Shown: positions 2,642 to 15,938 of the stretch, in pieces | Layout: every line of letters starts with the position of its first letter | How positions within the stretch are numbered: the first letter of the stretch is position 1 | Made by a program: the position numbers and the translations under genes | Origin: Escherichia coli | Lineage (GTDB): Bacteria > Pseudomonadota > Gammaproteobacteria > Enterobacterales > Enterobacteriaceae | Length of the DNA: 64,000 nucleotides | Direction: 5' to 3' (one strand) | NCBI RefSeq assembly: GCF_024700885.2 | Contig: NZ_CP117016.1 | Notes under the pieces: model-generated | Told to the model about the DNA's origin: nothing | The model's input: only the letters and a program-made list of their open reading frames with translations | Databases searched by the model: none

Positions 2642-2932
2642 ACTGCTTATTCCTTGATAAAACGGTTACACACGCCAGGACGGCAAAATAGATCCCAAAT
2701 CGGAATAGTCTGGATTTGGAAGGCTCACATTATCACCAAAAGAGTTTTACGCAAGCCTGTCGGCGCAGGGTTTACAAATTTAGCACAGGGGCAGTTTTCA
2801 ATAGTCCGAAAAGCGCATGTATCATTTATTTCCTAAGATTATGAAACCTCAATAGTAATATGCAAATAAGCAATTAATAATCCCGTTTACTCCTCCGGTC
2901 TTTTAAAATTCTCACCTTCATTCAGCCGGTTT

Positions 2933-3691
2933 ATGTCCTTCATGTCTTCGTTCTTGCTCGGCAGATTTCTGCATCCAGGCGTGTTTTCGTTATGCGTTTT
3001 GCTCCCTTTACTCGCCAGCGCCACCACATCACATATCTCATTCAGCTACGCCGCCCGCCAGCGGATGCAAAACCGTGCGCGTTTATTAAAACAGTACCAA
3101 ACCCATCTGAAAAAACAGGCCAGCTATATTGTGGAAGGCAATGCCGAAAGCAGAAAGGCGCTGCGCCAGCACAACCGCGAACAGATAAAACAGCATCCAG
3201 AATGGTTTCCTGCGCCGCTCAAGGCAAGTGACAGACGCTGGCAGGCGCTGGCGGAGAACAACCATTTCTTAAGCAGCGACCATCTACACAACATCACCGA
3301 AGTGGCGATTCACCGCCTGGAGCAGCAGCTTGGCAAGCCTTACGTCTGGGGCGGCACGCGGCCCGATCAAGGCTTCGACTGTAGCGGGTTGGTTTTTTAT
3401 GCCTACAACAAGATCCTCGAGGCGAAGCTCCCGCGCACGGCCAATGAGATGTATCACTACCATCGGGCAACGATTGTGGCGAACAACGACCTGCGCCGGG
3501 GAGATTTGCTGTTTTTCCATATTCACAGCCGTGAAATTGCCGACCATATGGGCGTGTATCTGGGAGACGGTCAGTTTATCGAGTCGCCGCGCACGGGGGA
3601 AACCATTCGGGTAAGTCGGTTAGCTGAACCTTTCTGGCAGGATCATTTTTTAGGCGCGCGGCGGATTTTGACGGAGGAGACGATTTTGTAA
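2933..3691 (+). CDS. yafL: NlpC/P60-family peptidoglycan endopeptidase lipoprotein
   Basis: 252-aa ORF with signal/lipobox-like N-terminus and the GFDCSGLVFYAY cysteine peptidase motif. Confidence 0.8.
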   Translation: MSFMSSFLLGRFLHPGVFSLCVLLPLLASATTSHISFSYAARQRMQNRARLLKQYQTHLKKQASYIVEGNAESRKALRQHNREQIKQHPEWFPAPLKASDRRWQALAENNHFLSSDHLHNITEVAIHRLEQQLGKPYVWGGTRPDQGFDCSGLVFYAYNKILEAKLPRTANEMYHYHRATIVANNDLRRGDLLFFHIHSREIADHMGVYLGDGQFIESPRTGETIRVSRLAEPFWQDHFLGARRILTEETIL

Positions 3692-3717
3692 ATGGGTAAT
3701 ATTGACGAACTGGCAAA

Positions 3718-3745
3718 AGGTCGGATGCCACGCGGCATCCGACCT
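3718..3745. terminator. REP-like palindrome between convergent genes (likely bidirectional terminator)
   Basis: aggtcggatgccacgcggcatccgacct is a near-perfect palindrome between the yafL 3' end and the 3' end of the minus-strand gene at 3748. Confidence 0.5.
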
Positions 3746-3747
3746 GT

Positions 3748-4104
3748 TTACATCTGGGCTGAAAACTCACGTTCTAAGACATCAACAATGAGCTGGTTTT
3801 TTGAAATGGAATGTTGTCTGGCGACGATGGTCAGCCGCGAATCAATGTGATGAGGAACACGAAGCGTCAGGCGTTTTTGCTCTTCTTCTTCACGAAAAGG
3901 GGCAATACCGTCCTCTTCACAATCCGCCATCCACTCATCCAGCGCGCTTTCGCCTTCACGATATAATGCCTCAATACTTGTGGCTACAAAGTCACAATAA
4001 CCGTTTACATTGAGGAACTTGCCGCGAAATGCGTTGATATCGGCTTCAAATGTCACTGCGGCTGGTTGACCTTTAATTGTGATAATGTTCGATGCTTTAT
4101 TCAT
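3748..4104 (-). CDS. HicB-like antitoxin (RNase H-like fold plus C-terminal ribbon-helix-helix)
   Basis: 118 aa; C-terminal RLTLRVPHHIDSRLTIVARQHSISKNQLIVDVLEREF looks like an RHH DNA-binding tail; 8-nt overlap with the upstream small ORF. Confidence 0.5.
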   Translation of the reverse strand: MNKASNIITIKGQPAAVTFEADINAFRGKFLNVNGYCDFVATSIEALYREGESALDEWMADCEEDGIAPFREEEEQKRLTLRVPHHIDSRLTIVARQHSISKNQLIVDVLEREFSAQM

Positions 4105-4396
4105 AATCTACCCCTACACAGTTAACAAACCACTCCTTAAGACCTGCTACTGCGCCTTTATCCATCACATTCTTTGGATGTGGCTCATGTGTGCTGAATT
4201 TGGTCGTTCCAATCTGAAATTTTCGTCTGGAGCCGTTGTTATTTTTTATTGTTCCACCCACAGCTTTAATGAGTGCAACAACATCATCCCATTTAATTCC
4301 AGATTTTGGCGGCTCCGTCATTACATCGTCGAATGTTTTTCTATGACGAGAGCCTAGCGCGCTGACCTTAATCATACTATCAATCCATGACGTCAT
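4097..4396 (-). CDS. HicA-like toxin (putative mRNA interferase)
   Basis: 99 aa; segment GSRRKFQIGTTKFSTHEPHPKNVMDKGAVAGLKEW resembles the HicA core (GSH..F....HP.K); sits upstream of and overlapping its partner. Confidence 0.45.
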   Translation of the reverse strand: MTSWIDSMIKVSALGSRHRKTFDDVMTEPPKSGIKWDDVVALIKAVGGTIKNNNGSRRKFQIGTTKFSTHEPHPKNVMDKGAVAGLKEWFVNCVGVDYE

Positions 4397-4479
4397 TGTA
4401 TGGTGTCATCGTAGTCTCTTTGCAGTGTGACGTCAATTAATGGTGTCAGGTGCTGCAAAGCATGGAAAAGATTCCTCAA

Positions 4480-6573
4480 TCAACTCAACGCCCCCATAAT
4501 CTTCAACTCCAGCTCATCCGGCACTTCGTTATACGACAGCACATGCAGCCCCGGCGCAAACAATCTCGCATAGCGCGCCAGCAAAGGACGCAACTGCGGC
4601 GGCACCAGCAGCACCGGGTCTTTCCCCGCCGCTTTCATCTGCTCCTTCACCTGCGGCATCGTGATCTGAAACTGGTTGAGCATATTCGGGTCAACCGGTA
4701 CGCTGTCGAGCATCACTTTCCCGCCCTGTTGCGCCTGATTCACCACGTTGGTCAGCAGATTTTCCAGCTCATTATTCAGCGTATACACCGTCAGCTCCTG
4801 CTTGCGAACGAGCGGATGGGTAATGCTGCGCCGTAGCGCCAGGCGCACATCAGCTGCCAGCAGAATATGATCTTTGGTCACTGTGCTACTGGCGACCAGC
4901 ACGGTGGCGATGGTGACGATATCGCGCAGGGAAACGCCTTCAGTCAGTAGCGCCCGGTACACTTTCAGCAACTGGCTGTAATTGAGCGCCGCGCTCAAAT
5001 CTTCCGCCAGTCGCGGTGCCATCGACGACAAACGGTTATGCAGCTGAGTAATATCGTCATAGTTAAACAAATCAGGAATATAGCTGCGGACAATCTTGTT
5101 CACATGGGTGGCAATCACGCTGGCGCTGTCGATCACCTGATACCCCATATTCAGCGCCTTCGCTTTCTGCGCAGGCTGAATCCAGGTGACCGGCATCCCG
5201 TACGCCGGGTCGTTCCCCAATACGCCGTCTATCTCGCCGTAGGTTTCGCTGGAGGGCAGGGCCATCAGTTTATCCGCCGGAATATCCGCTTCATCAGCCT
5301 TAATGCCGTTGATGAAAATGGCGTACTGGCTGGGCTTGAGGCGGAAATTTTCCCGAATGCGGATCTCCGGCAGCAGCACGCCGTTGCCGTCGGAAATCAC
5401 CTGCCGCACGCCGCGAATCCGCTGGGTGAGCGGGTTACCTTGGGCTTTATCGACCAGCGCCACCAGCTTGTAGCCGAGGCTTAAGCTGATGGGCTCGATC
5501 AGCGGAATGGTTTCCCAACTGACCTGTTGCTCGCTGGTTTCAGTGATAGTGCGGGTCAGCGTTTCGAGACTTTTCTCTTCTGCCTCCGCCGCCTGCGGGC
5601 GTTTGCTCATCCGCCAGCCGGTAAAGCCAAGCAGGGCGCTGAACAGCAAAAACGGCAGATGCGGCATTCCCGGCACCACCGCCAGTACGAACATGATCCC
5701 GGTGGCGGTGTAGAGCACCGACGGGCTTGCCAGCAGCTGGTGGCGCACGTCATGGGCGATATCGCCGTTGTCGCTGACGCGGGTGACGATAATCGCCGCC
5801 GCGGTGGAAAGCAGCAGGGAAGGGATCTGCGCCACCAGGCCGTCGCCGATGGTCATCAGCACATATTGCTGGAAGGCGGCGTCGGCGCTCAGGTTGTATT
5901 TGAAGATCCCGATACAGACGCCGCCGATCAGGTTGATCGCCAGAATCATCATCCCGGCTATGGCATCCCCACGCACAAACTTCGATGCCCCGTCCATCGC
6001 GCCGTAGAAATCGGCCTCGCTGGCAACATCTTTACGCCGTGTTTGCGCCTGCGCCTGGTTGATCAACCCGGCGTTAAGATCGGCGTCAATCGCCATCTGT
6101 TTGCCGGGCATCGCGTCCAGGGTAAAGCGGGCGGAAACCTCGGAAATACGCTCGGCCCCTTTGGTGACGACGATAAAGTTGATGATCATCAGGATGATAA
6201 ACACCACGAAACCGACGACAAAGTTGCCGCCAATCACCACCTGACCAAATGACTCAATCACCTTACCTGCTGCGCCCGCGCCGAGATGCCCGTGCAGTAG
6301 CACCACGCGCGTAGAAGCAACGTTCAGCGTCAGGCGCATTAAGGTGGTGATCAGCAAAATGGTCGGGAACAGGCTGAATTCCAGCGGCCTTTTCGCCGAC
6401 ACCGCCACCAGCAGCACCATCACCGCCAGCACAATGTTGAAGGTGAACAGAATATCCAGCAGCGCAGGCGGCAGCGGCAAAATAACCATCGCCAGAATAC
6501 ACAGGATCACCAGCGGCACGCCGGGATTACCGCCGCGCAGTAGCGCGAGGAACGATTTAGTTGTTTTCGCCAT
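4480..6573 (-). CDS. lfhA: flagellar export apparatus protein FlhA homologue (Flag-2 lateral system)
   Basis: 697 aa, multi-TM N-terminus and large cytoplasmic domain typical of FlhA; first gene of the Flag-2 cluster next to yafL. Confidence 0.9.
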   Translation of the reverse strand: MAKTTKSFLALLRGGNPGVPLVILCILAMVILPLPPALLDILFTFNIVLAVMVLLVAVSAKRPLEFSLFPTILLITTLMRLTLNVASTRVVLLHGHLGAGAAGKVIESFGQVVIGGNFVVGFVVFIILMIINFIVVTKGAERISEVSARFTLDAMPGKQMAIDADLNAGLINQAQAQTRRKDVASEADFYGAMDGASKFVRGDAIAGMMILAINLIGGVCIGIFKYNLSADAAFQQYVLMTIGDGLVAQIPSLLLSTAAAIIVTRVSDNGDIAHDVRHQLLASPSVLYTATGIMFVLAVVPGMPHLPFLLFSALLGFTGWRMSKRPQAAEAEEKSLETLTRTITETSEQQVSWETIPLIEPISLSLGYKLVALVDKAQGNPLTQRIRGVRQVISDGNGVLLPEIRIRENFRLKPSQYAIFINGIKADEADIPADKLMALPSSETYGEIDGVLGNDPAYGMPVTWIQPAQKAKALNMGYQVIDSASVIATHVNKIVRSYIPDLFNYDDITQLHNRLSSMAPRLAEDLSAALNYSQLLKVYRALLTEGVSLRDIVTIATVLVASSTVTKDHILLAADVRLALRRSITHPLVRKQELTVYTLNNELENLLTNVVNQAQQGGKVMLDSVPVDPNMLNQFQITMPQVKEQMKAAGKDPVLLVPPQLRPLLARYARLFAPGLHVLSYNEVPDELELKIMGALS

Positions 6574-7696
6574 CCAGTTTAAGCACCTCTTTGGGAATGG
6601 AAATATGTCTGTTCAGGGCCGGGCGCGGCTGTGCGCCGTCGCGCCAGTGTTTCATTTGCAGGACGTAGGTCAGAACGTGGGCGATGGCCCGGTAAAGCTG
6701 AAACGGAATTTGCTGGTTCACCTGGGTGGTGTAGTAAACCGAGCGCGCCAGCCGCGGGAACTCGACCACTTCCACCTGATTCTCAGCAGCGACCTGACGA
6801 ATATAGAGGGCGATTTCATCGGTGCCTTTCGCCACCACAAACGGCGCGGCGGCGCGCGACTGGTCGTACTGCAACGCTACGGCGTAGTGGGTCGGGTTGG
6901 TGATCACCACGTTGGCTTTTGGCACCACTTTGCGGATTTGCCCCATCGCCAGCTGCCGTTGCAGCCGCCGCACGCGTGCCTTCACTTCCGGCTTGCCTTC
7001 CTGATTTTTGTACTCTTCTTTCAGCTCCTGCTTGGTCATCTTCAGTCCTTTGGTGAACAGGGCTTTCGCCAGCGGCACGTCGATTAACGCAAAGAAGATA
7101 AACAGGATGACAAAGTTGCGCATCACGCTGGCGTAGAGCGATAAACCGTCATTCATCGCCAGTTTGAACGGTAGTGCCTGCAGGCCGAGAAAGGCGGCAA
7201 AGTTATTGCGCAGGCTTACCCACAGCATCACCAGCACCACCACCGACTTCACCGTCATCTTTCCCGTTTCCGCCAGATGTTCGCTGGAAAACAGTCGCCC
7301 AATGCCTTTTAACGGGCTGATTTTGCTGAAATCCGGGAGGATTTTTTTCGGCAGAAACAGCCAGCCGCCGGGCACCAGCGAAGAGAGCAGCGCGGCGGCG
7401 GGCATCGGTAGCAAGGTAAGAATAAACTTGCCGAGAATTAACAGGTGATGGCGCAGAAACTGGCCGAGCACCTGCGGGTTATTAATCTCCTGCGCATACT
7501 GATGCACGCTGATAAAACTCTCGCGTACAAAATCGGCGTACCACGGAAAACTGCTGGAGATCACCACAAACGCCGCAAACAGGCTCGCCGCTAGCCCCAT
7601 ATCCTTCGAGCGCGGCAGTTGCCCCTCTTCACGCGCTTTACGCAGCTTTTGCGCCGAGGGTTTCTCTGTTTTTTCTTCGCTGCTGCTATCCGCCAT
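6557..7696 (-). CDS. lfhB: flagellar export apparatus protein FlhB homologue
   Basis: 379 aa with FlhB-like TM region and the conserved NPTH autocleavage motif (VVITNPTHYAVAL). Confidence 0.9.
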   Translation of the reverse strand: MADSSSEEKTEKPSAQKLRKAREEGQLPRSKDMGLAASLFAAFVVISSSFPWYADFVRESFISVHQYAQEINNPQVLGQFLRHHLLILGKFILTLLPMPAAALLSSLVPGGWLFLPKKILPDFSKISPLKGIGRLFSSEHLAETGKMTVKSVVVLVMLWVSLRNNFAAFLGLQALPFKLAMNDGLSLYASVMRNFVILFIFFALIDVPLAKALFTKGLKMTKQELKEEYKNQEGKPEVKARVRRLQRQLAMGQIRKVVPKANVVITNPTHYAVALQYDQSRAAAPFVVAKGTDEIALYIRQVAAENQVEVVEFPRLARSVYYTTQVNQQIPFQLYRAIAHVLTYVLQMKHWRDGAQPRPALNRHISIPKEVLKLDGENN

Positions 7697-8468
7697 AGTG
7701 ACCTTTCAGCGCGTCGAGTTGCTGCAACACAAAATTCGCCAGATGCAGATAGTGATCCGGCAGGTTGTAGAGCAGGGTGGCGAAGCAGACCAGCCCCGCC
7801 AGCATGTTGATGGGAAAGCCGAGCGAAAAGAGGTTCAGCGGCGGCGCGATGCGGTTGAGCAGGCCAAAGCAGCCCTGCACAATCAGCATGATAAAGGTGG
7901 TCGGCAGCGCCAGCAGCGATGCGGACGCCAGCACCCAGCTAAAGGCCAGTGCGATGGTGCGCAGGGGTTGCGGATGCAGCGCGTTGCCAATCGGCCAGTA
8001 GGTGAAGCCCTTATACAAAACACTCACCAGCAACAGATGCCCGTCCATGGCAAAAAACAGCAGGATTGCGTAGACGTTGATTAACTCCGCCAGCACGGTG
8101 GTCGATGCGCCGCTGCTCGGGTCGTTCATCACCGCCATGCTCATCCCCATATTGAACGAGAGAATTTGCCCGGCCAGTTGCAGCGCCAGAAACAGAAACT
8201 GAAACATCAGCCCGAACAACATGCCCCATAATATTTGCTCCACCGTCAGGATCAGGCTGTTGAGCGATAGCAGGTCGTGGGGAATGGGATGGGGGATCAA
8301 CGGCGTGATGATGATTGCCAGCGCCAGCGACAAAATGATCCGCACACGCACGGTCAGGGCGCTGTTATCCAGCACCGGCACATAGCGCAGAAACGCCATA
8401 ATGCGCACGAAGGGAAACCACAGCCCCATCGCCAGATCCATCAGTTGCGTAACGTCGCTTGTACGCAT
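7686..8468 (-). CDS. lfiR: flagellar export apparatus protein FliR homologue
   Basis: ORF 7686..8519; start trimmed to MRTSDVTQLM so it follows the lfiQ stop; polytopic membrane protein. Confidence 0.8.
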   Translation of the reverse strand: MRTSDVTQLMDLAMGLWFPFVRIMAFLRYVPVLDNSALTVRVRIILSLALAIIITPLIPHPIPHDLLSLNSLILTVEQILWGMLFGLMFQFLFLALQLAGQILSFNMGMSMAVMNDPSSGASTTVLAELINVYAILLFFAMDGHLLLVSVLYKGFTYWPIGNALHPQPLRTIALAFSWVLASASLLALPTTFIMLIVQGCFGLLNRIAPPLNLFSLGFPINMLAGLVCFATLLYNLPDHYLHLANFVLQQLDALKGHYGG

Positions 8469-8469
8469 C

Positions 8470-8742
8470 TTAATGCACCAGCAACGCGGCCTGGGTAAAC
8501 AGATGAATACACAGATCATGCAACTGGATAATCATCCATTTGCCGCACACGCCCAGCACCACCAGCGTGACAATCAGCCTCGGCAAAAAACTCAGGGTCT
8601 GTTCGTTAATCTGCGTCACCGCCTGGAACACGCTCACCAGCAGGCCAACCAGCAGGCTCGGCACTACCAGCACGGAAACCAGCAAAATCACCACTTTTAT
8701 GCCGCTCGCGACAATGTCGGCGGCTACGTCTACGGTCAACAT
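8470..8742 (-). CDS. lfiQ: flagellar export apparatus protein FliQ homologue
   Basis: 90 aa, two TM helices, FliQ-like sequence; tightly packed between lfiP and lfiR. Confidence 0.85.
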   Translation of the reverse strand: MLTVDVAADIVASGIKVVILLVSVLVVPSLLVGLLVSVFQAVTQINEQTLSFLPRLIVTLVVLGVCGKWMIIQLHDLCIHLFTQAALLVH

Positions 8743-8744
8743 AA

Positions 8745-9497
8745 TCAGCCCAGCCCCAGCCCGCGAATGCTGGTGGTGAGCGTACCGATTGTCAGCGACC
8801 AGCCGTCGATCAGCACAAACAGCATCAGTTTAAAGGGCAGCGAAACAATCAGCGGCGACAGCATCATCATCCCCATCGCCATCAATACGCTGGCGACAAT
8901 CAGGTCGATAACCAGAAACGGGATGTAAATCATAAAGCCAATCTGGAAGGCGGTTTTCAGCTCGCTCAACACATAGGCAGGCACCACGATGGAGAGATCC
9001 TGATCGGCGGCATTGCCCTTCGCGCCGCCGATGGTCATGATTTGCGCCATCGCTTTTTTGTCGGTCTGCGCCAGCATAAAGCGTTTGAGCGGCGTCGCGG
9101 CGGTGCTTAATGCATCGGTCAGGGTAATCTGATCGTTTTCGAACGGCACTACCGCGTGGTCGTAAATATTGAGCCAGATAGGGCGCATCACCAGCATAGT
9201 GAGTGAGAGCGCAATACCAATCAAAATGCGGTTTGGCGGCGTTTGTTGCAGCCCCAGCGCCTGGCGCAGCAGCGACAGCACGATAATAAAGCGCGTAAAG
9301 CAGGTCATCATCAGCACCATCGTCGGCAGCAAACCGACGAGGGTCATCAGAATCAGTACCTGAATTTTGACGCTGTACTCCTGAGTGTTGCCGTGGGTGA
9401 CCACGTTAAGCAGCGCAATATCGCCACCCTGGGCTAACGCCAGCGGCGCAAGCGCCAGCAGCCCAAGGCCCAGCGTCAGTTGAGTGCGGCGTTTCAT
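8745..9497 (-). CDS. lfiP: flagellar export apparatus protein FliP homologue
   Basis: 250 aa with signal peptide and FliP-like TM core. Confidence 0.88.
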   Translation of the reverse strand: MKRRTQLTLGLGLLALAPLALAQGGDIALLNVVTHGNTQEYSVKIQVLILMTLVGLLPTMVLMMTCFTRFIIVLSLLRQALGLQQTPPNRILIGIALSLTMLVMRPIWLNIYDHAVVPFENDQITLTDALSTAATPLKRFMLAQTDKKAMAQIMTIGGAKGNAADQDLSIVVPAYVLSELKTAFQIGFMIYIPFLVIDLIVASVLMAMGMMMLSPLIVSLPFKLMLFVLIDGWSLTIGTLTTSIRGLGLG

Positions 9498-9865
9498 GGT
9501 GCCAGGTCGTTGATATCGCGGGTGTTAAACTCCAGCACGCGCAGGCCGTACTTCTCGTTGACCACCACCACTTCTGCTTTGCCCAACAGGATATTGTTTA
9601 CTTTAATATCCAGCGGCTCCCCGGCGAGCTTATCCAGCTCAATCACCGTGTCGTCGTCGATGTTAAGGAGGTCGGCTAACATGATCTCTACTGATGACAC
9701 TTCCAGCGTTAAGGTCACCGGAATGCGTTTTAGCAGCGTCATCGAGTCGGAAAAACGGTCTTCCAGGCGGGTGACCAGCGTTTCAGCGTCGGCAGATTTC
9801 GCGACAGGCGCAACTTCATCGGTGAGGCCAAAATCCCCGGCTAAAATATCTTCTTGCTTACTCAT
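9494..9865 (-). CDS. lfiN: flagellar motor switch protein FliN homologue
   Basis: ORF 9494..9925; start trimmed to MSKQEDIL (123 aa) directly after the lfiM stop; SpoA-like C-terminus. Confidence 0.8.
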   Translation of the reverse strand: MSKQEDILAGDFGLTDEVAPVAKSADAETLVTRLEDRFSDSMTLLKRIPVTLTLEVSSVEIMLADLLNIDDDTVIELDKLAGEPLDIKVNNILLGKAEVVVVNEKYGLRVLEFNTRDINDLAP

Positions 9866-10709
9866 GGCTATTCTCATTTTTGCCCGCCAGCTCCGACAAA
9901 AACAGTTTGTCTTTGTCTTCCACAATCAGGGCGCTAAATAATTCAGATTGCCCAATCGCCACCGGGAACGTTTCTCCCAGCGAGATGGGTAAAATATCCC
10001 CGGCTTTTATCTGCGTGAGATCCGCGACATTCAGCGACAGCTCGGCGATTTTGACGTTCAGGGTCAGCGGCAGAGAGCGGATAATCTCTTTAATCAGGGC
10101 CGGTTTATTAACGGATTTCGCCACCTGCTGCGGTTTACTGTGCTCGCTGTGGCGGATCAGATTCAAAATAAAATCGGTGTGGGCGTCGTCGAGCAAAATA
10201 CGAAAACTGCTCTCTTCATCGCCCGCAAGGGTAAAGGTTAATTGATACGCCCAGTGGGTAATCACCGTGCTGCTATCCAGCTTTAATTTCAGCGCAATAC
10301 CGGAGGTTTGCAGATTAAATATCAGCGTGCAGATATCCAGCGCGAGTCGGTTTTTTAAACGAGTTTCGGTTTTGGTCGGCAGCCCGTTATGCGCTTTCGC
10401 CTCTTCAAGAGAGGACTCCAGACCATAAAAATTGCCCAGCAGCATTAACAATAAGGAGCGATCAATATCAAACGCCAGATGCCCGACCTGGGAAACCATC
10501 AGTTCGGCGTTTTTATTAATAATATCCATTTCGCAGCCAATCTTTTTTAAGGTGATATTGCTGCGATGCTTTTTGAGAAAGTAGCTGCCCAGATGCGAAT
10601 CAATCACGTCAAAATTCCCCGTAAACAGGGTCGGCAGGCGATGGTAGGGGCGTCCGAGCCGATTACCTTCTAATTTAAAGATGCCTGGCGTTTTACTGTA
10701 CTTCAGCAT
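9858..10709 (-). CDS. lfiM: flagellar motor switch protein FliM homologue
   Basis: 283 aa; operon position upstream of lfiN and FliM-like N-terminal region. Confidence 0.78.
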   Translation of the reverse strand: MLKYSKTPGIFKLEGNRLGRPYHRLPTLFTGNFDVIDSHLGSYFLKKHRSNITLKKIGCEMDIINKNAELMVSQVGHLAFDIDRSLLLMLLGNFYGLESSLEEAKAHNGLPTKTETRLKNRLALDICTLIFNLQTSGIALKLKLDSSTVITHWAYQLTFTLAGDEESSFRILLDDAHTDFILNLIRHSEHSKPQQVAKSVNKPALIKEIIRSLPLTLNVKIAELSLNVADLTQIKAGDILPISLGETFPVAIGQSELFSALIVEDKDKLFLSELAGKNENSHE

Positions 10710-10888
10710 GGCTTACTTTCTCTGCTGTAATGGTATGGGTGTTTCTGTGCACGCAAATCCGGCTGTGACACAAGGTGAGGTATTAAATAGAGGGGGAGTG
10801 AAAGGGGCAAATTATTAATAGGATGAAAAAATAATTAATCGATTAATTGCTTAATGGGAGTGATTTTCGCCAATCAGTCTGCGGTCTG

Positions 10889-10928
10889 TCCCCTCGCCCC
10901 ATCCGGGGAGAGGGTTAGGGTGAGGGGG
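10889..10928. repeat. short intergenic palindromic repeat (second copy)
   Basis: ccctcgccccatccggggagagggttagggtgaggg, same architecture as the repeat at 1049-1088. Confidence 0.4.
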
Positions 10929-11081
10929 CATCACAGATGTCCAAATTAACAGTATTAATATCTAACTAATTGTTTACCATCAAATAATATTTTTATTATC
11001 GTTTAATTCGAACTTGTTAATCCCGCCGGTGATACGCTTCAGAACATCCTGTTTTCTGTCGCTACTTATATCGTTCACCCT

Positions 11082-11349
11082 ATGTCTGAACTTATTGCAA
11101 CTGCCGCTTCCAGCATTAACGCTTTTACTCTGGCAAAGCGTGTCGCCGCATTTAACGTGCCGGTGCTCATTCAGGGCGAAACCGGCGCGGGCAAAGAATG
11201 CGTGGCAAAATATATTCACACCGTCGCCTTTGGTGAAAATGATAACGCGCCCTATATCGGCGTGAACTGCGCGGCGATCCCGGAAAACATGCTGGAAGCT
11301 ACATTATTTGGCTACGACAAAGGCGCATTTACCGGCGCAATTGCCAGCG
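11082..11349 (+). pseudogene. lafK: truncated sigma-54-dependent activator (Flag-2 regulator LafK-like), cut by IS1
   Basis: Translation contains the AAA+ Walker A GETGAGKE and sigma-54 activator-like sequence, then runs directly into the IS1 left end at 11350. Confidence 0.7.
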
Positions 11350-11404
11350 GGTGATGCTGCCAACTTACTGATTTAGTGTATGATGGTGTTTTTGAGGTGC
11401 TCCA

Positions 11405-11680
11405 GTGGCTTCTGTTTCTATCAGCTGTCCCTCCTGTTCAGCTACTGACGGGGTGGTGCGTAACGGCAAAAGCACCGCCGGACATCAGCGCTATCTCTGC
11501 TCTCACTGCCGTAAAACATGGCAACTGCAGTTCACTTACACCGCTTCTCAACCCGGTACGCACCAGAAAATCATTGATATGGCCATGAATGGCGTTGGAT
11601 GCCGGGCAACCGCCCGCATTATGGGCGTTGGCCTCAACACGATTTTCCGCCATTTAAAAAACTCAGGCCGCAGTCGGTAA
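11405..11680 (+). CDS. insA: IS1 InsA (transposition repressor)
   Basis: 91 aa [41 protein letters not shown]..., the zinc-finger InsA of IS1. Confidence 0.92.
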
Positions 11681-12102
11681 CCTCGCGCATACAGCCGGGC
11701 AGTGACGTCATCGTCTGCGCGGAAATGGACGAACAGTGGGGATACGTCGGGGCTAAATCGCGCCAGCGCTGGCTGTTTTACGCGTATGACAGGCTCCGGA
11801 AGACGGTTGTTGCGCACGTATTCGGTGAACGCACTATGGCGACGCTGGGGCGTCTTATGAGCCTGCTGTCACCCTTTGACGTGGTGATATGGATGACGGA
11901 TGGCTGGCCGCTGTATGAATCCCGCCTGAAGGGAAAGCTGCACGTAATCAGCAAGCGATATACGCAGCGAATTGAGCGGCATAACCTGAATCTGAGGCAG
12001 CACCTGGCACGGCTGGGACGGAAGTCGCTGTCGTTCTCAAAATCGGTGGAGCTGCATGACAAAGTCATCGGGCATTATCTGAACATAAAACACTATCAAT
12101 AA
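11599..12102 (+). CDS. insB: IS1 InsB reading frame (expressed as InsAB' transposase by -1 frameshift)
   Basis: Frame encodes ...[60 protein letters not shown]..., recognised as IS1 InsB. Confidence 0.88.
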
Positions 12103-12118
12103 GTTGGAGTCATTACCG

Positions 12119-12274
12119 GAATGCCTGACGGAAATGAAATTTGAAGATTTGCGCGGCATGAAAATATCCGCCATCCGCAAACTGATTTCTGATGCGCTAA
12201 AGAAAGATCTTCAGCGTCGCAAAATGAGCGCACCGTATAAGGATTTGCTGGTGAAAAAAGTGGTCTTCCAGTAA
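12119..12274 (+). pseudogene. 3' remnant of a gene truncated by the IS1-associated deletion
   Basis: Open frame immediately after the IS1 right end encodes a C-terminal tail (...KISAIRKLISDALKKDLQRRKMSAPYKDLLVKKVVFQ*) with no upstream start context. Confidence 0.35.
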
Positions 12275-12293
12275 TCACCAGGCGGATATAAAC

Positions 12294-13010
12294 ATGCTAC
12301 AGGACGTATTCGAGTCAGAAGAATTTGCTGCCGCGCCGGTATTAACCCCGCAGCAGGAGAGCCACTACTTGCAGGCCTATTTACCGTTGGTGCGTAAAGT
12401 GGTGCGGCAACTTGCCCCGCAGTGTAATTGCATTATTGATCGTCAGGATATGGAACAAATGGCGTTAATGGGGCTGCTTAATGCCATTCGTCGCTACGGG
12501 CTGCCGGACGAAGGTTTTGCGGGCTATGCCGTGCACCGTATTCGCGGCGCGATCCTGGATGAGCTGCGCGCTCTCGACTGGCGACCGCGCCAGCTGCGAC
12601 AGAAATATCATCAGATGAAAGATCTGATACGCGAAACGCGTAAAAAACTGGGGCACGAACCGGAGTGGTCAGAACTGGCCGTGGAAGGGATTTCGCATGA
12701 AGATTATATCGAATATCAGCAACTGGAAGGGGCGGAAACGCTCGCCAGCCTTGACGAACTGCTGAACGGCGAAGGGCCAGGCATTCCACTTGTTGGCAGG
12801 GAACTGGAAGATCAGTTTGTCACCCAGCAAATGCTGCAATACGCGCTTTCACTATTAAGCGAAAAAGAGCAACTGATCCTCTCCATGTATTACCAGCATG
12901 AGATGAATCTCAAAGAGATTGCGCTGGTATTAGGGCTAACCGAGGCCCGAATTTGTCAACTGAATAAACAGATCGCGCAGAAAATTCGTGATTTTGTCTA
13001 TCCGAATTAA
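12294..13010 (+). CDS. lafS: flagellar sigma factor (FliA/sigma-28 family), Flag-2 system
   Basis: 238 aa with sigma-70 regions 2 and 4 (C-terminal HTH LKEIALVLGLTEARICQL). Confidence 0.85.
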   Translation: MLQDVFESEEFAAAPVLTPQQESHYLQAYLPLVRKVVRQLAPQCNCIIDRQDMEQMALMGLLNAIRRYGLPDEGFAGYAVHRIRGAILDELRALDWRPRQLRQKYHQMKDLIRETRKKLGHEPEWSELAVEGISHEDYIEYQQLEGAETLASLDELLNGEGPGIPLVGRELEDQFVTQQMLQYALSLLSEKEQLILSMYYQHEMNLKEIALVLGLTEARICQLNKQIAQKIRDFVYPN

Positions 13011-13022
13011 AGTGAAGAAATC

Positions 13023-13886
13023 ATGCAAAAAATATTAGGTTTACTGGTGGTGCTCGGCTGCGTATTTGGCGGTTATTTTGAAGCGGGCGGGCAACTAGTG
13101 GCTATCTGGCAACCGGCGGAGATGATCATTATTTTGGGTGCCGGTTTCGGGGCGATGATTATTGGTAATCCGAAACATGTGCTGAAAGAGATTGCTCATC
13201 AAATTAAAGGCGTGATCAGTAAAAAACAGCTCGGGCCGGAGTTTCAGCGTCAGCTATTAATGTGCCTGTATGAGTTGCTCGAAATGGTACAAAACGGCGG
13301 CCTGCGCATGTTGGATCAGCATATTGAGCAGCCGGAAGAGAGCACCGTTTTCCAGAAATACCCGCTGGTGTTAACCCAGAAGCGGCTGGTGACCTTTATT
13401 GCCGATAACTTTCGCCTGATGGCGATGGGCAAAATCGACGCCCACGAACTGGAAGGCATTCTCGATCAGGAGCTGGATACCGCCGAAGAGTCGCTGCTCA
13501 CGCCGTCGCGCTCGCTGCAACGTACCGCCGAAGCGATGCCGGGATTTGGTATTTGCGCGGCGGTGCTGGGCATCATCATCACCATGCAGTCGATTGATGG
13601 ATCTATCGCCCTGATTGGCCTGAAAGTGGCGGCGGCTCTGGTGGGGACGTTTTTAGGCGTCTTTATCTGCTACTGCCTGATGGACCCGCTTGCCAACGCC
13701 ATGGAACAACAGGCGCGGGCGGAACATTCTTTGCTGGAATGTGTGCGTACCGTGCTGGTGGCGCAGGCGGGCGGTAAACCGACGCTGCTGGCGGTAGACG
13801 CCGGGCGTAAGCTGCTGCATCTAGCGTCCAAACCGACCTTCGCCAACCTCGACGCGTGGGTGAATGCGATGCTGGAGCAAGAATAA
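13023..13886 (+). CDS. lafT: flagellar stator protein MotA homologue
   Basis: 287 aa, four TM helices, MotA/TolQ/ExbB family pattern. Confidence 0.88.
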   Translation: MQKILGLLVVLGCVFGGYFEAGGQLVAIWQPAEMIIILGAGFGAMIIGNPKHVLKEIAHQIKGVISKKQLGPEFQRQLLMCLYELLEMVQNGGLRMLDQHIEQPEESTVFQKYPLVLTQKRLVTFIADNFRLMAMGKIDAHELEGILDQELDTAEESLLTPSRSLQRTAEAMPGFGICAAVLGIIITMQSIDGSIALIGLKVAAALVGTFLGVFICYCLMDPLANAMEQQARAEHSLLECVRTVLVAQAGGKPTLLAVDAGRKLLHLASKPTFANLDAWVNAMLEQE

Positions 13887-13888
13887 GC

Positions 13889-14812
13889 ATGAGAAAGACG
13901 GGCAACCGCCGCGAGCGTGGGGCAAAAACCACCATCGTCCGGCGGCAGATCAAAAAGAATCATGCCGGGCATCACGGCGGGGCGTGGAAGGTGGCGTTCG
14001 CCGACTTTACTTTGGCAATGATGGCGCTATTTATGACGCTGTGGATTGTCAACAGCGTCAGTAAATCCGAGCGTGAAAGCATTATCGCCGCGCTGCACGG
14101 GCAGTCGATTTTCAATGGCGGCGGGTTGTCGCCGTTAAATAAAATCAGCCCGTCTCATCCGCCAAAACCTGCCACCGTGGCGGTGCCGGAAGAGACGGAG
14201 AAAAAAGCGCGTGACGTCAATGAGAAAACGGCGCTGCTGAAGAAGAAATCAGCCACTGAGCTTGGCGAGCTGGCGACCAGTATCAACACCATTGCCCGTG
14301 ATGCACATATGGAAGCGAATCTGGAGATGGAGATTGTTCCCCAGGGACTGCGCGTGCTGATTAAAGATGACCAGAACCGCAATATGTTTGAACGCGGCAG
14401 CGCACAGATTATGCCGTTCTTTAAAACTTTGCTGGTGGAGCTCGCGCCAGTGTTCGACTCGCTCGATAACAAAATTATTATTACCGGGCATACCGATGCG
14501 ATGGCCTACAAAAACAATATCTACAACAACTGGAACCTTTCGGGCGATCGCGCGCTTTCGGCTCGTCGGGTGCTGGAAGAGGCCGGAATGCCGGAAGATA
14601 AAGTGATGCAGGTGAGCGCGATGGCGGACCAGATGCTGCTGGACGCGAAAAATCCGCAAAGCGCGGGCAACCGACGCATTGAGATTATGGTGCTGACCAA
14701 AAGTGCGTCCGATACGCTGTATCAATACTTTGGTCAGCATGGGGATAAAGTGGTGCAGCCGCTGGTGCAAAAGCTGGATAAGCAGCAGGTGCATTCGCAG
14801 CGAACGCGCTAG
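13889..14812 (+). CDS. lafU: flagellar stator protein MotB homologue (OmpA-like peptidoglycan-binding domain)
   Basis: ORF 13856..14812; start trimmed to MRKTGNRRE; single TM then OmpA-like C-terminal domain (NRRIEIMVL). Confidence 0.85.
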   Translation: MRKTGNRRERGAKTTIVRRQIKKNHAGHHGGAWKVAFADFTLAMMALFMTLWIVNSVSKSERESIIAALHGQSIFNGGGLSPLNKISPSHPPKPATVAVPEETEKKARDVNEKTALLKKKSATELGELATSINTIARDAHMEANLEMEIVPQGLRVLIKDDQNRNMFERGSAQIMPFFKTLLVELAPVFDSLDNKIIITGHTDAMAYKNNIYNNWNLSGDRALSARRVLEEAGMPEDKVMQVSAMADQMLLDAKNPQSAGNRRIEIMVLTKSASDTLYQYFGQHGDKVVQPLVQKLDKQQVHSQRTR

Positions 14813-14849: not shown

Positions 14850-14869
14850 ACTGTATACTTTACCAGTGT
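14850..14869 (+). promoter_or_regulatory. LexA (SOS) box upstream of dinB
   Basis: aCTGTatactttacCAGTgt matches the CTGT-N8-ACAG type LexA operator, about 15 bp upstream of the dinB start. Confidence 0.7.
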
Positions 14870-14882
14870 TGAGAGGTGAGCA

Positions 14883-15938
14883 ATGCGTAAAATCATTCAT
14901 GTGGATATGGACTGCTTTTTCGCAGCGGTGGAGATGCGCGACAATCCCGCCCTGCGCGATATCCCTATTGCTATTGGCGGCAGCCGCGAACGTCGGGGGG
15001 TGATCAGCACCGCCAATTATCCCGCGCGTAAATTTGGCGTACGTAGCGCTATGCCGACAGGGATGGCGCTCAAATTATGCCCACATCTCACCTTGCTTCC
15101 GGGGCGCTTTGACGCCTACAAAGAAGCCTCAAATCATATCCGTGAAATCTTCTCGCGCTACACCTCGCGTATTGAACCGTTGTCACTGGATGAAGCCTAT
15201 CTCGATGTCACTGATAGCGTCCATTGCCACGGTTCTGCGACCCTCATCGCCCAGGAAATCCGCCAGACGATTTTCAGCGAGCTGCAACTGACGGCGTCTG
15301 CGGGCGTGGCACCAGTAAAGTTTCTCGCCAAAATCGCCTCCGACATGAATAAACCCAACGGCCAGTTTGTGATTACGCCGGCAGAAGTTCCGGCATTTTT
15401 ACAAACCTTACCACTGGCAAAAATCCCCGGCGTCGGCAAAGTCTCGGCGGCAAAACTGGAAGCGATGGGGCTGCGGACCTGCGGTGATGTACAAAAGTGT
15501 GATCTGGTGATGCTGCTTAAACGCTTTGGCAAATTTGGCCGCATTTTGTGGGAGCGTAGTCAGGGGATTGACGAACGCGATGTTAACAGCGAACGGTTGC
15601 GAAAATCCGTCGGCGTGGAACGCACGATGGCGGAAGATATTCATCACTGGTCTGAATGTGAAGCGATTATCGAGCGGCTGTATCCGGAACTTGAACGCCG
15701 TCTGGCAAAGGTGAAACCTGATTTACTGATTGCTCGCCAGGGGGTGAAATTAAAGTTTGATGATTTTCAGCAAACCACTCAGGAGCACGTCTGGCCGCGG
15801 CTGAATAAAGCTGATCTAATCGCCACCGCGCGTAAAACCTGGGATGAACGCCGCGGCGGGCGCGGTGTGCGACTGGTGGGGCTGCATGTGACGTTGCTTG
15901 ACCCTCAAATGGAAAGACAACTGGTGCTGGGATTATGA
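14883..15938 (+). CDS. dinB: DNA polymerase IV (Y-family translesion polymerase)
   Basis: 351 aa starting [33 protein letters not shown]. Confidence 0.95.

What the first reader, a model, noticed from the sequence alone, without database searches (positions are those of the whole stretch)
3748..4396. HicAB-like toxin-antitoxin pair between yafL and the Flag-2 cluster
Two overlapping small minus-strand genes: a 99-aa protein with a HicA-like core and a 118-aa protein with a C-terminal ribbon-helix-helix. This occupies the position where E. coli K-12 carries different content, so it is a strain-variable toxin-antitoxin insertion near the SOS-regulated dinB region.
Basis: partly seen in the sequence, partly recalled or inferred. 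Interest (0 to 1): 0.3.

Follow-up and report, generated by a model that had tools for sequence, protein, structure and literature searches.

The report
Known HicAB toxin-antitoxin cassette
This is an ordinary two-gene HicA/HicB toxin-antitoxin cassette that about a quarter of E. coli strains carry at this exact spot; it is already annotated in RefSeq and listed in a published HicA survey, though nobody has tested it experimentally.

Summary
Two overlapping minus-strand genes lie between yafL and lfhA: hicB (3748-4104, 118 aa) and hicA (stop at 4097). Both pass Pfam's curated cut-offs (HicA_toxin, HicB). AlphaFold models have solved HicA and HicB structures as their best matches. One correction: hicA starts at ATG 4375 (92 aa), not 4396 (99 aa). 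Homologues, the RefSeq annotation, a conserved Shine-Dalgarno sequence and the promoter layout all agree on this.

The cassette is strain-variable. It is present in 1479 of 5426 complete E. coli genomes and sits at this same site in at least the 1369 where this was checked. The alternatives are the rayT/REP cassette of K-12 (3564 genomes) or a REP-only site. It is not new: RefSeq names both genes, and Gerdes 2024 (mBio, Table S1) lists this exact protein pair as "Class 4 hicAB, RHH".

Two details are added here. First, the promoter carries four TGACGTCA-like boxes in two pairs, and their positions are conserved in seven diverged lineages; this is the likely HicB operator. Second, this HicA clade has Arg where characterised HicAs have the catalytic His, and instead keeps a near-invariant H-x-P-H motif.

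No LexA box links the cassette to SOS. Toxicity is untested. Low interest.

The parts
4097..4375 (-). hicA, the toxin gene: 92 aa plus a stop codon at 4097-4099. It has an N-terminal extra helix (residues 9-19) followed by an alpha-beta-beta-beta-alpha core like a double-stranded-RNA-binding domain (residues ~27-87).
4376..4396 (-). Seven in-frame codons from the upstream ATG 4396, which produce the 99-aa reading. They are probably not translated; the ATG is part of operator box 4.
   Evidence: Of 24 aligned homologues, 20 start at the Met8 equivalent and one at the longer N-terminus. The RefSeq start agrees. The predicted transcription start (~4401) and the Shine-Dalgarno GGAT (4386-4383) both serve ATG 4375.
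3748..4104 (-). hicB, the antitoxin and repressor gene: 118 aa. The N-terminal domain is beta-beta-beta(-beta)-alpha (residues ~7-65). The C-terminal part is a ribbon-helix-helix (residues ~76-117).
   Evidence: Pfam HicB PF05534, 40.5 bits against a cut-off of 21, residues 60-110. AlphaFold2 mean pLDDT 85. The eight best Foldseek PDB hits are all HicB or TTHA0281 (6g26_A/B, 4p7d, 6u0i, 4p78_A, 2dsy), and the C-terminus also matches Arc, ParG and VapB. A profile of the family matches the AmrZ ribbon-helix-helix weakly.
4097..4104 (-). 8-nt overlap between the hicA stop and the hicB start (ATGAATAA). An AGGGG Shine-Dalgarno-like sequence lies at 4115-4111. The layout suggests translational coupling.
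   Evidence: Read directly from the sequence. The identical 8-nt overlap occurs in all homologous loci.
4408..4436 (-). Predicted sigma-70 promoter: -35 TTGACG (4436-4431), a 17-nt spacer, and -10 TACGAT (4413-4408).
   Evidence: Consensus scan. The same layout is seen in the homologous loci: the -35 TTGACG/TTGAGG lies inside box 2, and the -10 (TAGAAT, TAAAAT, TATTAT) lies just 5' of box 3. No transcription start has been measured.
4388..4448 (-). Putative HicB operator. Four 8-bp boxes, palindromic or nearly so: TGACACCA (4448-4441), TGACGTCA (4435-4428), TGACACCA (4408-4401) and TGACGTCA (4395-4388). They form two pairs, 13 bp apart within a pair and 40 bp between pairs. The first pair covers the -35 hexamer and the second covers the start-site region.
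   Evidence: The composite pattern occurs twice in the 64 kb, both times here, against 0.00 expected by chance. Boxes at the same positions (about -73, -60, -33 and -20 from the ATG) occur in seven diverged lineages whose upstream DNA is otherwise unalignable. HicB binding itself is inferred.
3713..3751 (-). Stable hairpin immediately after the hicB stop codon, followed by UUUUG. It lies between the convergent genes yafL and hicB and is probably a transcription terminator.
   Evidence: Inverted repeat of 15 nt, 93% complementary. RNA fold energy -27.1 kcal/mol, z-score -4.6. It does not meet the scan's strict criterion of at least 5 T.
3692..4484 (.). The strain-variable segment, running from the yafL stop to the lfhA stop. 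Here it holds hicAB. In K-12 it holds REP-rayT-REP, and in NCTC9022 only a REP array.
   Evidence: Homology with K-12 breaks at window 3690 and resumes at 4485. Junction alignment. GC content is 41-46% in the segment against 55-60% in the flanks.

Best explanation
This is a classical type II HicAB toxin-antitoxin operon with the toxin gene first (Class 4 in Gerdes' scheme). One promoter transcribes hicA and then hicB, and the 8-nt overlap couples their translation. HicA (92 aa) has the HicA fold, which resembles a double-stranded-RNA-binding domain. By analogy with characterised HicAs, it arrests growth by cleaving RNA without needing the ribosome. The N-terminal domain of HicB binds and masks HicA. 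Its C-terminal ribbon-helix-helix dimerises and binds the four TGACGTCA-like boxes that overlap the -35 hexamer and the start-site region, so the operon represses itself. The cassette is low in GC and was horizontally acquired. It occupies the REP-rich gap between yafL and lfhA as an alternative to the rayT cassette. Shown here: the genes, family membership, predicted folds, the conserved box architecture and the population distribution. Inferred: RNase activity, toxicity, neutralisation by HicB and operator binding.
For: Both proteins pass Pfam's gathering cut-offs. The models are confident (pLDDT 96.8 and 85.1). Their best structural matches are solved HicA chains and solved HicB chains. RefSeq annotates the pair as HicA and HicB in 1479 genomes. 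The identical protein pair is listed as Class 4 hicAB with a ribbon-helix-helix in Gerdes 2024, Table S1 (class definitions). Gene order, the 92-aa length and the 8-nt overlap are conserved in Salmonella colicin-plasmid-like contigs, Providencia, a Xenorhabdus prophage and metagenomes. Purifying selection is evident: dN is 0.19-0.45 against a saturated dS. The four-box promoter architecture is conserved in seven lineages and is absent by chance. It parallels the two HicB3 operators that flank the Yersinia pestis hicA3 promoter, as described in review PMC11594946. The low GC content and the plasmid and prophage homologues fit a mobile addiction or defence cassette.
Against: No experiment on this pair or on any member of its HicA clade turned up in the searches run, which looked for this pair and locus and did not target the clade. 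The residue aligned with the catalytic His of characterised HicAs (Burkholderia pseudomallei His24, Y. pestis His28) is Arg here, and in 58 of 80 clade members. RNase chemistry identical to the model HicAs therefore cannot be assumed. Sequence searches of the single proteins against PDB chains found no HicA or HicB. A narrow profile also found no HicA, and the broader clade profile reaches B. pseudomallei HicA only at E = 0.0012. Foldseek E-values for HicA are not significant on their own (0.27). PADLOC and NCBIfam give no hit. Frameshifted and truncated hicA alleles exist in E. coli, which shows the toxin is dispensable.
Confidence: 0.85

Rival explanations
1. The module belongs to the HicAB family, but its toxin does not use the canonical active site. 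Either it has relocated the catalytic His to the H-x-P-H motif at the end of strand beta-3, or it acts by binding RNA without cleaving it. On this reading the mechanism differs in detail from the E. coli K-12, Burkholderia and Yersinia HicAs.
For: The clade profile aligns G-S-R with G-S-H(24) of B. pseudomallei HicA and with G-S-H of Y. pestis HicA3 and 9svk. At that position Arg occurs in 58 of 80 clade members; none of the six most frequent residues is His, so at most 5 of the 80 could carry it. H63 (76/80), P65 (78/80) and H66 (79/80) are near-invariant. In the AlphaFold model, beta-2 (residues 50-55) and beta-3 (58-63) form a hairpin, so R50 and H63 are cross-strand neighbours (the pairing register is inferred). 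The importance of the canonical His is documented in review PMC11594946.
Against: This is a refinement of the main explanation rather than an alternative to it. H66 aligns with the His of the 'PHP' motif that B. pseudomallei HicA also has, so part of the motif is not specific to this clade.
Confidence: 0.45
2. The cassette is a decaying selfish remnant. HicB still represses the promoter, but this HicA allele is attenuated or non-toxic and the pair has no physiological role in this strain.
For: Several frameshifted or truncated hicA variants occur in E. coli. Many arise at the A6 run in codons I-K-N, and some clusters have 7-20 member sequences. About 110 of the 1479 carrier genomes hold only a partial copy. 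PADLOC recognises no defence system.
Against: The copy in this window is intact and retains every clade-invariant residue. It is identical to the commonest allele: 1013 genomes are at least 99% identical. The promoter, Shine-Dalgarno sequences, boxes and overlap are all intact. dN is far below dS between lineages.
Confidence: 0.12
3. The two ORFs are chance reading frames or mis-annotated non-coding DNA.
For: The ORF list is purely mechanical. The ORFs are short and low in GC.
Against: Both pass Pfam cut-offs. The models are confident and have the HicA and HicB folds. The pair is conserved as a pair across genera.
Confidence: 0.01

Closest known systems
Class 4 hicAB operons (Gerdes 2024, mBio 15:e03293-23): hicA upstream of a hicB that carries a C-terminal ribbon-helix-helix
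   Same: Gene order, close linkage or overlap, and a HicB with a partial RNase-H-like N-domain followed by a ribbon-helix-helix. This exact E. coli protein pair (UIV62394.1 / UIV62393.1) appears in that paper's Table S1 as Class 4.
   Different: Nothing in architecture. The paper is a bioinformatic catalogue and reports no functional test of this pair.
Burkholderia pseudomallei HicAB (PDB 6g26, 4c26) and Yersinia pestis HicA3B3 (PDB 4p78, 4p7d)
   Same: These are among the best structural matches for both proteins. Their HicB also has a ribbon-helix-helix. In Y. pestis, two operators flank or overlap the single promoter upstream of hicA, comparable to the two box pairs here.
   Different: Sequence identity is only 11-18%. 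This HicA is 92 aa rather than ~60, with an extra N-terminal helix and a conserved proline-containing linker. It has Arg where those toxins have the catalytic His24 or His28. This HicB is shorter: 118 aa against ~135.
E. coli K-12 HicAB (hicA/yncN and hicB/ydcQ; PDB 6hpb, 6u0i)
   Same: Same family, same folds and the same toxin-first order.
rayT (yafM) REP-associated tyrosine transposase cassette of K-12
   Same: It occupies exactly the same gap between the yafL stop and the lfhA stop, as the alternative allele.
   Different: The content is unrelated: a tyrosine transposase flanked by REP elements. The relationship is one of position only.

Membership tests
HicA toxin family (Pfam PF07927) | The sequence matches the family profile above the curated gathering score | tested here: met
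   30.2 bits against a cut-off of 27, residues 36-84 of the 99-aa reading. The margin is small. The clade profile reaches B. pseudomallei HicA at E = 0.0012.
HicA toxin family (Pfam PF07927) | [quoted passage not shown] | tested here: met
HicA toxin family (Pfam PF07927) | A catalytic His at the start of beta-2 (the G-S-H motif: His24 in B. pseudomallei, His28 in Y. pestis, His23 in E. coli K-12) | tested here: not met
   The aligned residue is Arg (G-S-R), both here and in 58 of 80 clade members. Near-invariant H63 and H66 are candidate substitutes. This bears on the mechanism more than on family membership, which rests on homology and fold.
HicA toxin family (Pfam PF07927) | Growth arrest and RNA cleavage on expression, reversed by the cognate HicB | not testable with these tools
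   This needs an expression and rescue assay. The library searches made for this pair returned no such report.
HicB antitoxin family (Pfam PF05534; Class 4 with ribbon-helix-helix) | The sequence matches the family profile above the curated gathering score | tested here: met
   40.5 bits against a cut-off of 21, residues 60-110.
HicB antitoxin family (Pfam PF05534; Class 4 with ribbon-helix-helix) | An N-terminal partial RNase-H-like domain (beta-beta-beta-alpha) that binds HicA | tested here: met
   The model has E7-10, E13-20, E25-30, E38-41 and H44-65. The top eight Foldseek hits are HicB or TTHA0281, with probabilities of 0.92-1.00. HicA binding itself was not tested.
HicB antitoxin family (Pfam PF05534; Class 4 with ribbon-helix-helix) | A C-terminal ribbon-helix-helix DNA-binding domain | tested here: met
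   Two C-terminal helices (85-97 and 102-117) follow the conserved segment LTLRVP. The fold matches Arc, ParG and VapB, and the profile matches AmrZ. Gerdes' Table S1 lists it as RHH. The ribbon strand forms only in the dimer and is not seen in the monomer model.
Type II toxin-antitoxin operon (autoregulated) | Adjacent co-oriented genes with an antitoxin-bound palindromic operator at the promoter | tested here: inconclusive
   The 8-nt overlap and the single upstream promoter are shown. Four conserved palindromic boxes overlap the promoter in seven lineages. Binding by HicB is inferred, not shown.
   No match with up to one mismatch falls in 4376-4480, while the same scan recovers the dinB box at 14851. 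The full 20-mer consensus has no match with up to three mismatches.

The most novel reading that the evidence does not exclude
The long-HicA clade to which this toxin belongs has about 361 representative clusters at 50% identity. It is marked by an extra N-terminal helix, an invariant proline linker, Arg at the canonical catalytic-His position and a near-invariant H-x-P-H motif. It may be an uncharacterised catalytic variant of HicA in which the essential His has moved from beta-2 to the neighbouring end of beta-3. Its cognate HicB may read a fixed four-box TGACGTCA operator that is conserved from E. coli to homologues only 43% identical. No experimentally validated HicA named in the 2024 review is shown to belong to this clade.
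Probability: 0.4. Interest if true: 0.3.

Novelty: already known. Interest (0 to 1): 0.1.

Why it matters
It matters little beyond correct annotation. The cassette is one more chromosomal HicAB module and is already named in RefSeq and in a published survey. It has three modest uses. It is a clean, single-site presence/absence marker (hicAB, rayT or REP-only) for E. coli population genetics at the Flag-2/dinB locus. The conserved four-box operator gives a ready-made, testable HicB binding site. The Arg-for-His substitution identifies a widespread HicA clade whose catalytic residues have not been mapped.

Tried and rejected
1. A toxin-antitoxin 'swap' (hicAB replacing dinJ-yafQ, which this window lacks) is rejected. 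dinJ-yafQ (3340 genomes) and the junction without dinJ (2084 genomes) are mutually exclusive alleles. However, a chimeric query shows that 1123 genomes carry both dinJ-yafQ and hicAB, so the two cassettes assort independently.

2. SOS control is rejected: there is no LexA box at the hicAB promoter.

3. Membership of a recognised anti-phage system found no support: PADLOC gives no hit, and the neighbours are yafL and flagellar genes, not a defence island.

4. NCBIfam gives no meaningful hit.

5. Single-sequence phmmer searches against PDB found no HicA or HicB for either protein. The narrow enterobacterial HicA profile also missed HicA. Only the broader clade profile reached it.

6. Literature searches found nothing for HicA + Flag-2, for the RefSeq accession numbers, or for hicAB + phylogroup as it concerns this locus.

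7. The 99-aa start is rejected in favour of 92 aa.

8. Quantitative dN/dS failed for most pairs because dS is saturated, so only a qualitative statement is made.

9. The two other TGACGTCA sites in the window (11703 and 14212) are isolated. Four exact copies in 64 kb was reached by 1 of 100 shuffles, so these two are treated as chance.

Full report
**Observation.** The ORF list confirms two minus-strand ORFs at the stated coordinates: 3748..4104 (118 aa) and 4097..4396 (99 aa). They overlap by 8 nt, ATGAATAA, in which the second gene's ATG lies inside the first gene's last codons. The neighbours are yafL (2933..3691, +) and a full-length lfhA/FlhA homologue (4480..6573, -).

**Family assignment.**
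- The upstream protein matches Pfam HicA_toxin at 30.2 bits (cut-off 27). The downstream protein matches Pfam HicB (PF05534) at 40.5 bits (cut-off 21) over residues 60-110.
- NCBIfam and PADLOC give nothing useful. Single-sequence searches against PDB chains find no HicA or HicB.
- For HicA, AlphaFold2 was run on an 80-sequence alignment of the clade and gave a very confident model (pLDDT 96.8). It has an extra N-terminal helix followed by helix, three strands and helix.
- The HicB model (pLDDT 85.1) has a four-stranded sheet plus a long helix, then two C-terminal helices. Its eight best Foldseek hits are all HicB or TTHA0281 structures. The C-terminal part also matches Arc, ParG and VapB ribbon-helix-helix proteins. 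A profile of the family weakly matches the AmrZ ribbon-helix-helix.

**Already known.**
- The 788-bp segment occurs in 1479 of 5426 complete E. coli genomes, once per genome, and RefSeq annotates it as 'type II toxin-antitoxin system HicB family antitoxin | HicA family toxin'.
- Table S1 of Gerdes 2024 (mBio 15:e03293-23) lists an E. coli pair, UIV62394.1 and UIV62393.1. The 92-aa HicA is identical to the protein encoded at 4375..4100. The 118-aa HicB differs only at the penultimate residue. The pair is classified there as 'Class 4 hicAB', with a ribbon-helix-helix (class definitions).
- No experimental work on this pair turned up in the searches made for it.

**Start codon.**
- Of the 24 aligned HicA homologues, 20 are 92-94 aa and begin MIK. 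Only one shares the longer N-terminus. RefSeq calls a 279-nt CDS.
- In every homologous locus a GGA(T/A) Shine-Dalgarno sequence lies 7-9 nt before that ATG.
- The upstream ATG at 4396 is the 'aTG' of an operator box (aTGACGTCA). It would lie only about 5 nt from the predicted transcription start.
- hicA is therefore best placed at 4097..4375 (92 aa).

**Promoter and operator (added here).**
- The consensus scan finds -35 TTGACG (4436-4431), a 17-nt spacer and -10 TACGAT (4413-4408) on the minus strand.
- Around it lie two copies of a 21-bp unit, TGACACCA-N5-TGACGTCA, at 4448-4428 and 4408-4388. The composite pattern occurs nowhere else in the 64 kb and is expected 0.00 times by chance.
- I fetched homologous hicAB loci from Salmonella (colicin-plasmid-like contigs), two metagenomic enterobacterial contigs, Providencia, a Xenorhabdus prophage and a homologue only 43% identical. 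Their upstream DNA is otherwise unalignable.
- All carry TGAC(G/A/T)TCA boxes at about -73, -60, -33 and -20 from the ATG. The -35 hexamer lies inside box 2, and an AT-rich -10 lies just 5' of box 3.
- This is a phylogenetic footprint of a four-box operator. It is what a ribbon-helix-helix HicB oligomer would be expected to bind.
- It resembles the two HicB3 operators at the Y. pestis hicA3 promoter, one of which overlaps the -10 (review PMC11594946). Binding here is inferred, not shown.
- A stable hairpin (-27.1 kcal/mol, z -4.6) followed by UUUUG lies right after the hicB stop, between the convergent genes yafL and hicB.

**Active site (added here).**
- An exhaustive HMMER search of 1.84 billion cluster representatives finds 361 relatives at E <= 0.001. 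Most are 84-100 aa, with consensus KHxKTLxxIFxxPxxxxIxWxD...GSRxxxxL...HxPHP.
- A profile of this clade aligns its G-S-R with G-S-H of B. pseudomallei HicA (the solved entries carry H24A), Y. pestis HicA3 and 9svk. That His is the residue shown to be required for toxicity or RNase activity in characterised HicAs (PMC11594946).
- In the clade this position is Arg in 58 of 80 sequences; the next most frequent residues are A, M, G, V and S. By contrast, H63 (76/80), P65 (78/80), H66 (79/80) and P22 (80/80) are near-invariant.
- In the model, beta-2 (50-55) and beta-3 (58-63) form a hairpin. R50 and H63 should therefore be cross-strand neighbours (the register is my inference).
- A relocated catalytic His is plausible but untested. 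This lowers confidence in 'identical chemistry', not in family membership.

**Population and origin.**
- Homology with K-12 stops at the yafL stop (window 3690) and resumes at the lfhA stop (4485). K-12 carries REP-rayT-REP in that gap.
- Across 5426 genomes, 1369 have yafL-hicBA-lfhA contiguous. A further ~110 have partial copies. The rayT cassette is in 3564 genomes. A few, such as NCTC9022, have only a REP array.
- The cassette has 41-46% GC against 55-60% in the flanks.
- Relatives sit on plasmids of several genera (Piscirickettsia, Deinococcus, Salmonella and others), next to colicin genes and next to prophage lysis genes. This fits a horizontally acquired module that landed in a REP-rich recombination spot.
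- The window also lacks dinJ-yafQ, but that is independent: 1123 genomes have both cassettes.
- Frameshifted or truncated hicA alleles occur in E. coli, many at the A6 run in codons I-K-N. This is typical of chromosomal toxin decay. The copy here is intact.

**SOS claim.** dinB lies at 14883..15938, 10.5 kb away. A LexA-box scan recovers the dinB box at 14851 and finds nothing at the hicAB promoter. The proximity is positional only.

**Verdict.** This is a real, intact, classical HicAB module (Class 4). It is strain-variable at a fixed site and is already annotated and catalogued. Novelty: already known. Interest is low. The corrected start codon, the conserved four-box operator and the Arg-for-His clade feature are modest refinements that would be easy to test.

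Noticed in passing
window 4480-14812: The 'Flag-2 cluster' here is only a remnant. On the left are lfhA, lfhB, lfiR, lfiQ, lfiP and FliN- and FliM-like genes. Next comes a 90-aa fragment of a sigma-54 activator (11082-11354), cut off by an IS1 element (insA/insB, 11405-12102). After that come a sigma-28-like factor, MotA-like (13023-13886) and MotB-like lafU (13856-14812) genes. Only ~7.85 kb (6192 to 14041) separates the K-12 deletion end-points.
   Followed up: partly
window 2642-2932 (dpaA-yafL gap): The dinJ-yafQ toxin-antitoxin pair of K-12 is absent here. dinJ-yafQ occurs in 3340 of 5426 genomes and the junction without it in 2084, so together they account for almost all genomes. This allele assorts independently of hicAB: 1123 genomes have both cassettes.
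   Followed up: yes
window 3006-3690 (yafL): yafL is only 92.4% identical to K-12, and its first ~70 nt do not align, whereas the flanking genes are 97-98.7% identical. The junction without dinJ itself splits into two identity classes: 824 genomes at 95% or more and 1231 at 90-95%. This suggests old diverged haplotypes around yafL.
   Followed up: no
window 4242-4247 (the A6 run on the hicA coding strand, codons I-K-N): Database variants of E. coli hicA are frameshifted at or near this homopolymer (P0036-P0039) or otherwise truncated (P0021, P0028, P0033). Some of these clusters have 7-20 member sequences. This may be recurrent toxin inactivation, although some single-member cases could be assembly errors.
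   Followed up: partly
L010:573-3125 (Xenorhabdus bovienii contig): A prophage region holds three toxin-antitoxin pairs side by side: a canonical short hicAB (59 + 138 aa), a RelE/HTH pair, and a homologue of this long hicAB. The cluster lies between a NinX-like gene and the lysis genes (LysC, DUF2570).
   Followed up: no
L003:3001-5953, L004, L005 (Salmonella enterica contigs): The homologous hicAB sits directly next to a DNase colicin/cloacin gene with its immunity and lysis genes. ParA-like and SprT-like genes lie upstream. This looks like a colicin-plasmid context, where the module would act as a plasmid addiction system.
   Followed up: no
L012:700-975 (E. coli NCTC9022) and L002:4462-5363 (K-12): Where hicAB is absent, the yafL-lfhA gap is filled by tandem REP elements, with or without rayT. 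The hicAB allele has none of these REPs, only its own terminator hairpin.
   Followed up: partly
NZ_AP023206.1 (hit H56): A 404-kb E. coli record in the plasmid collection carries a hicAB copy whose HicA is 100% identical. In total, 3 of the 1479 places in E. coli genomes lie on records typed as plasmids. These could be chromosome-derived replicons or misassigned contigs.
   Followed up: no
window 11703-11710 and 14212-14219: Two further exact TGACGTCA palindromes lie outside the hicAB promoter. They are isolated and not paired, and are probably chance.
   Followed up: no
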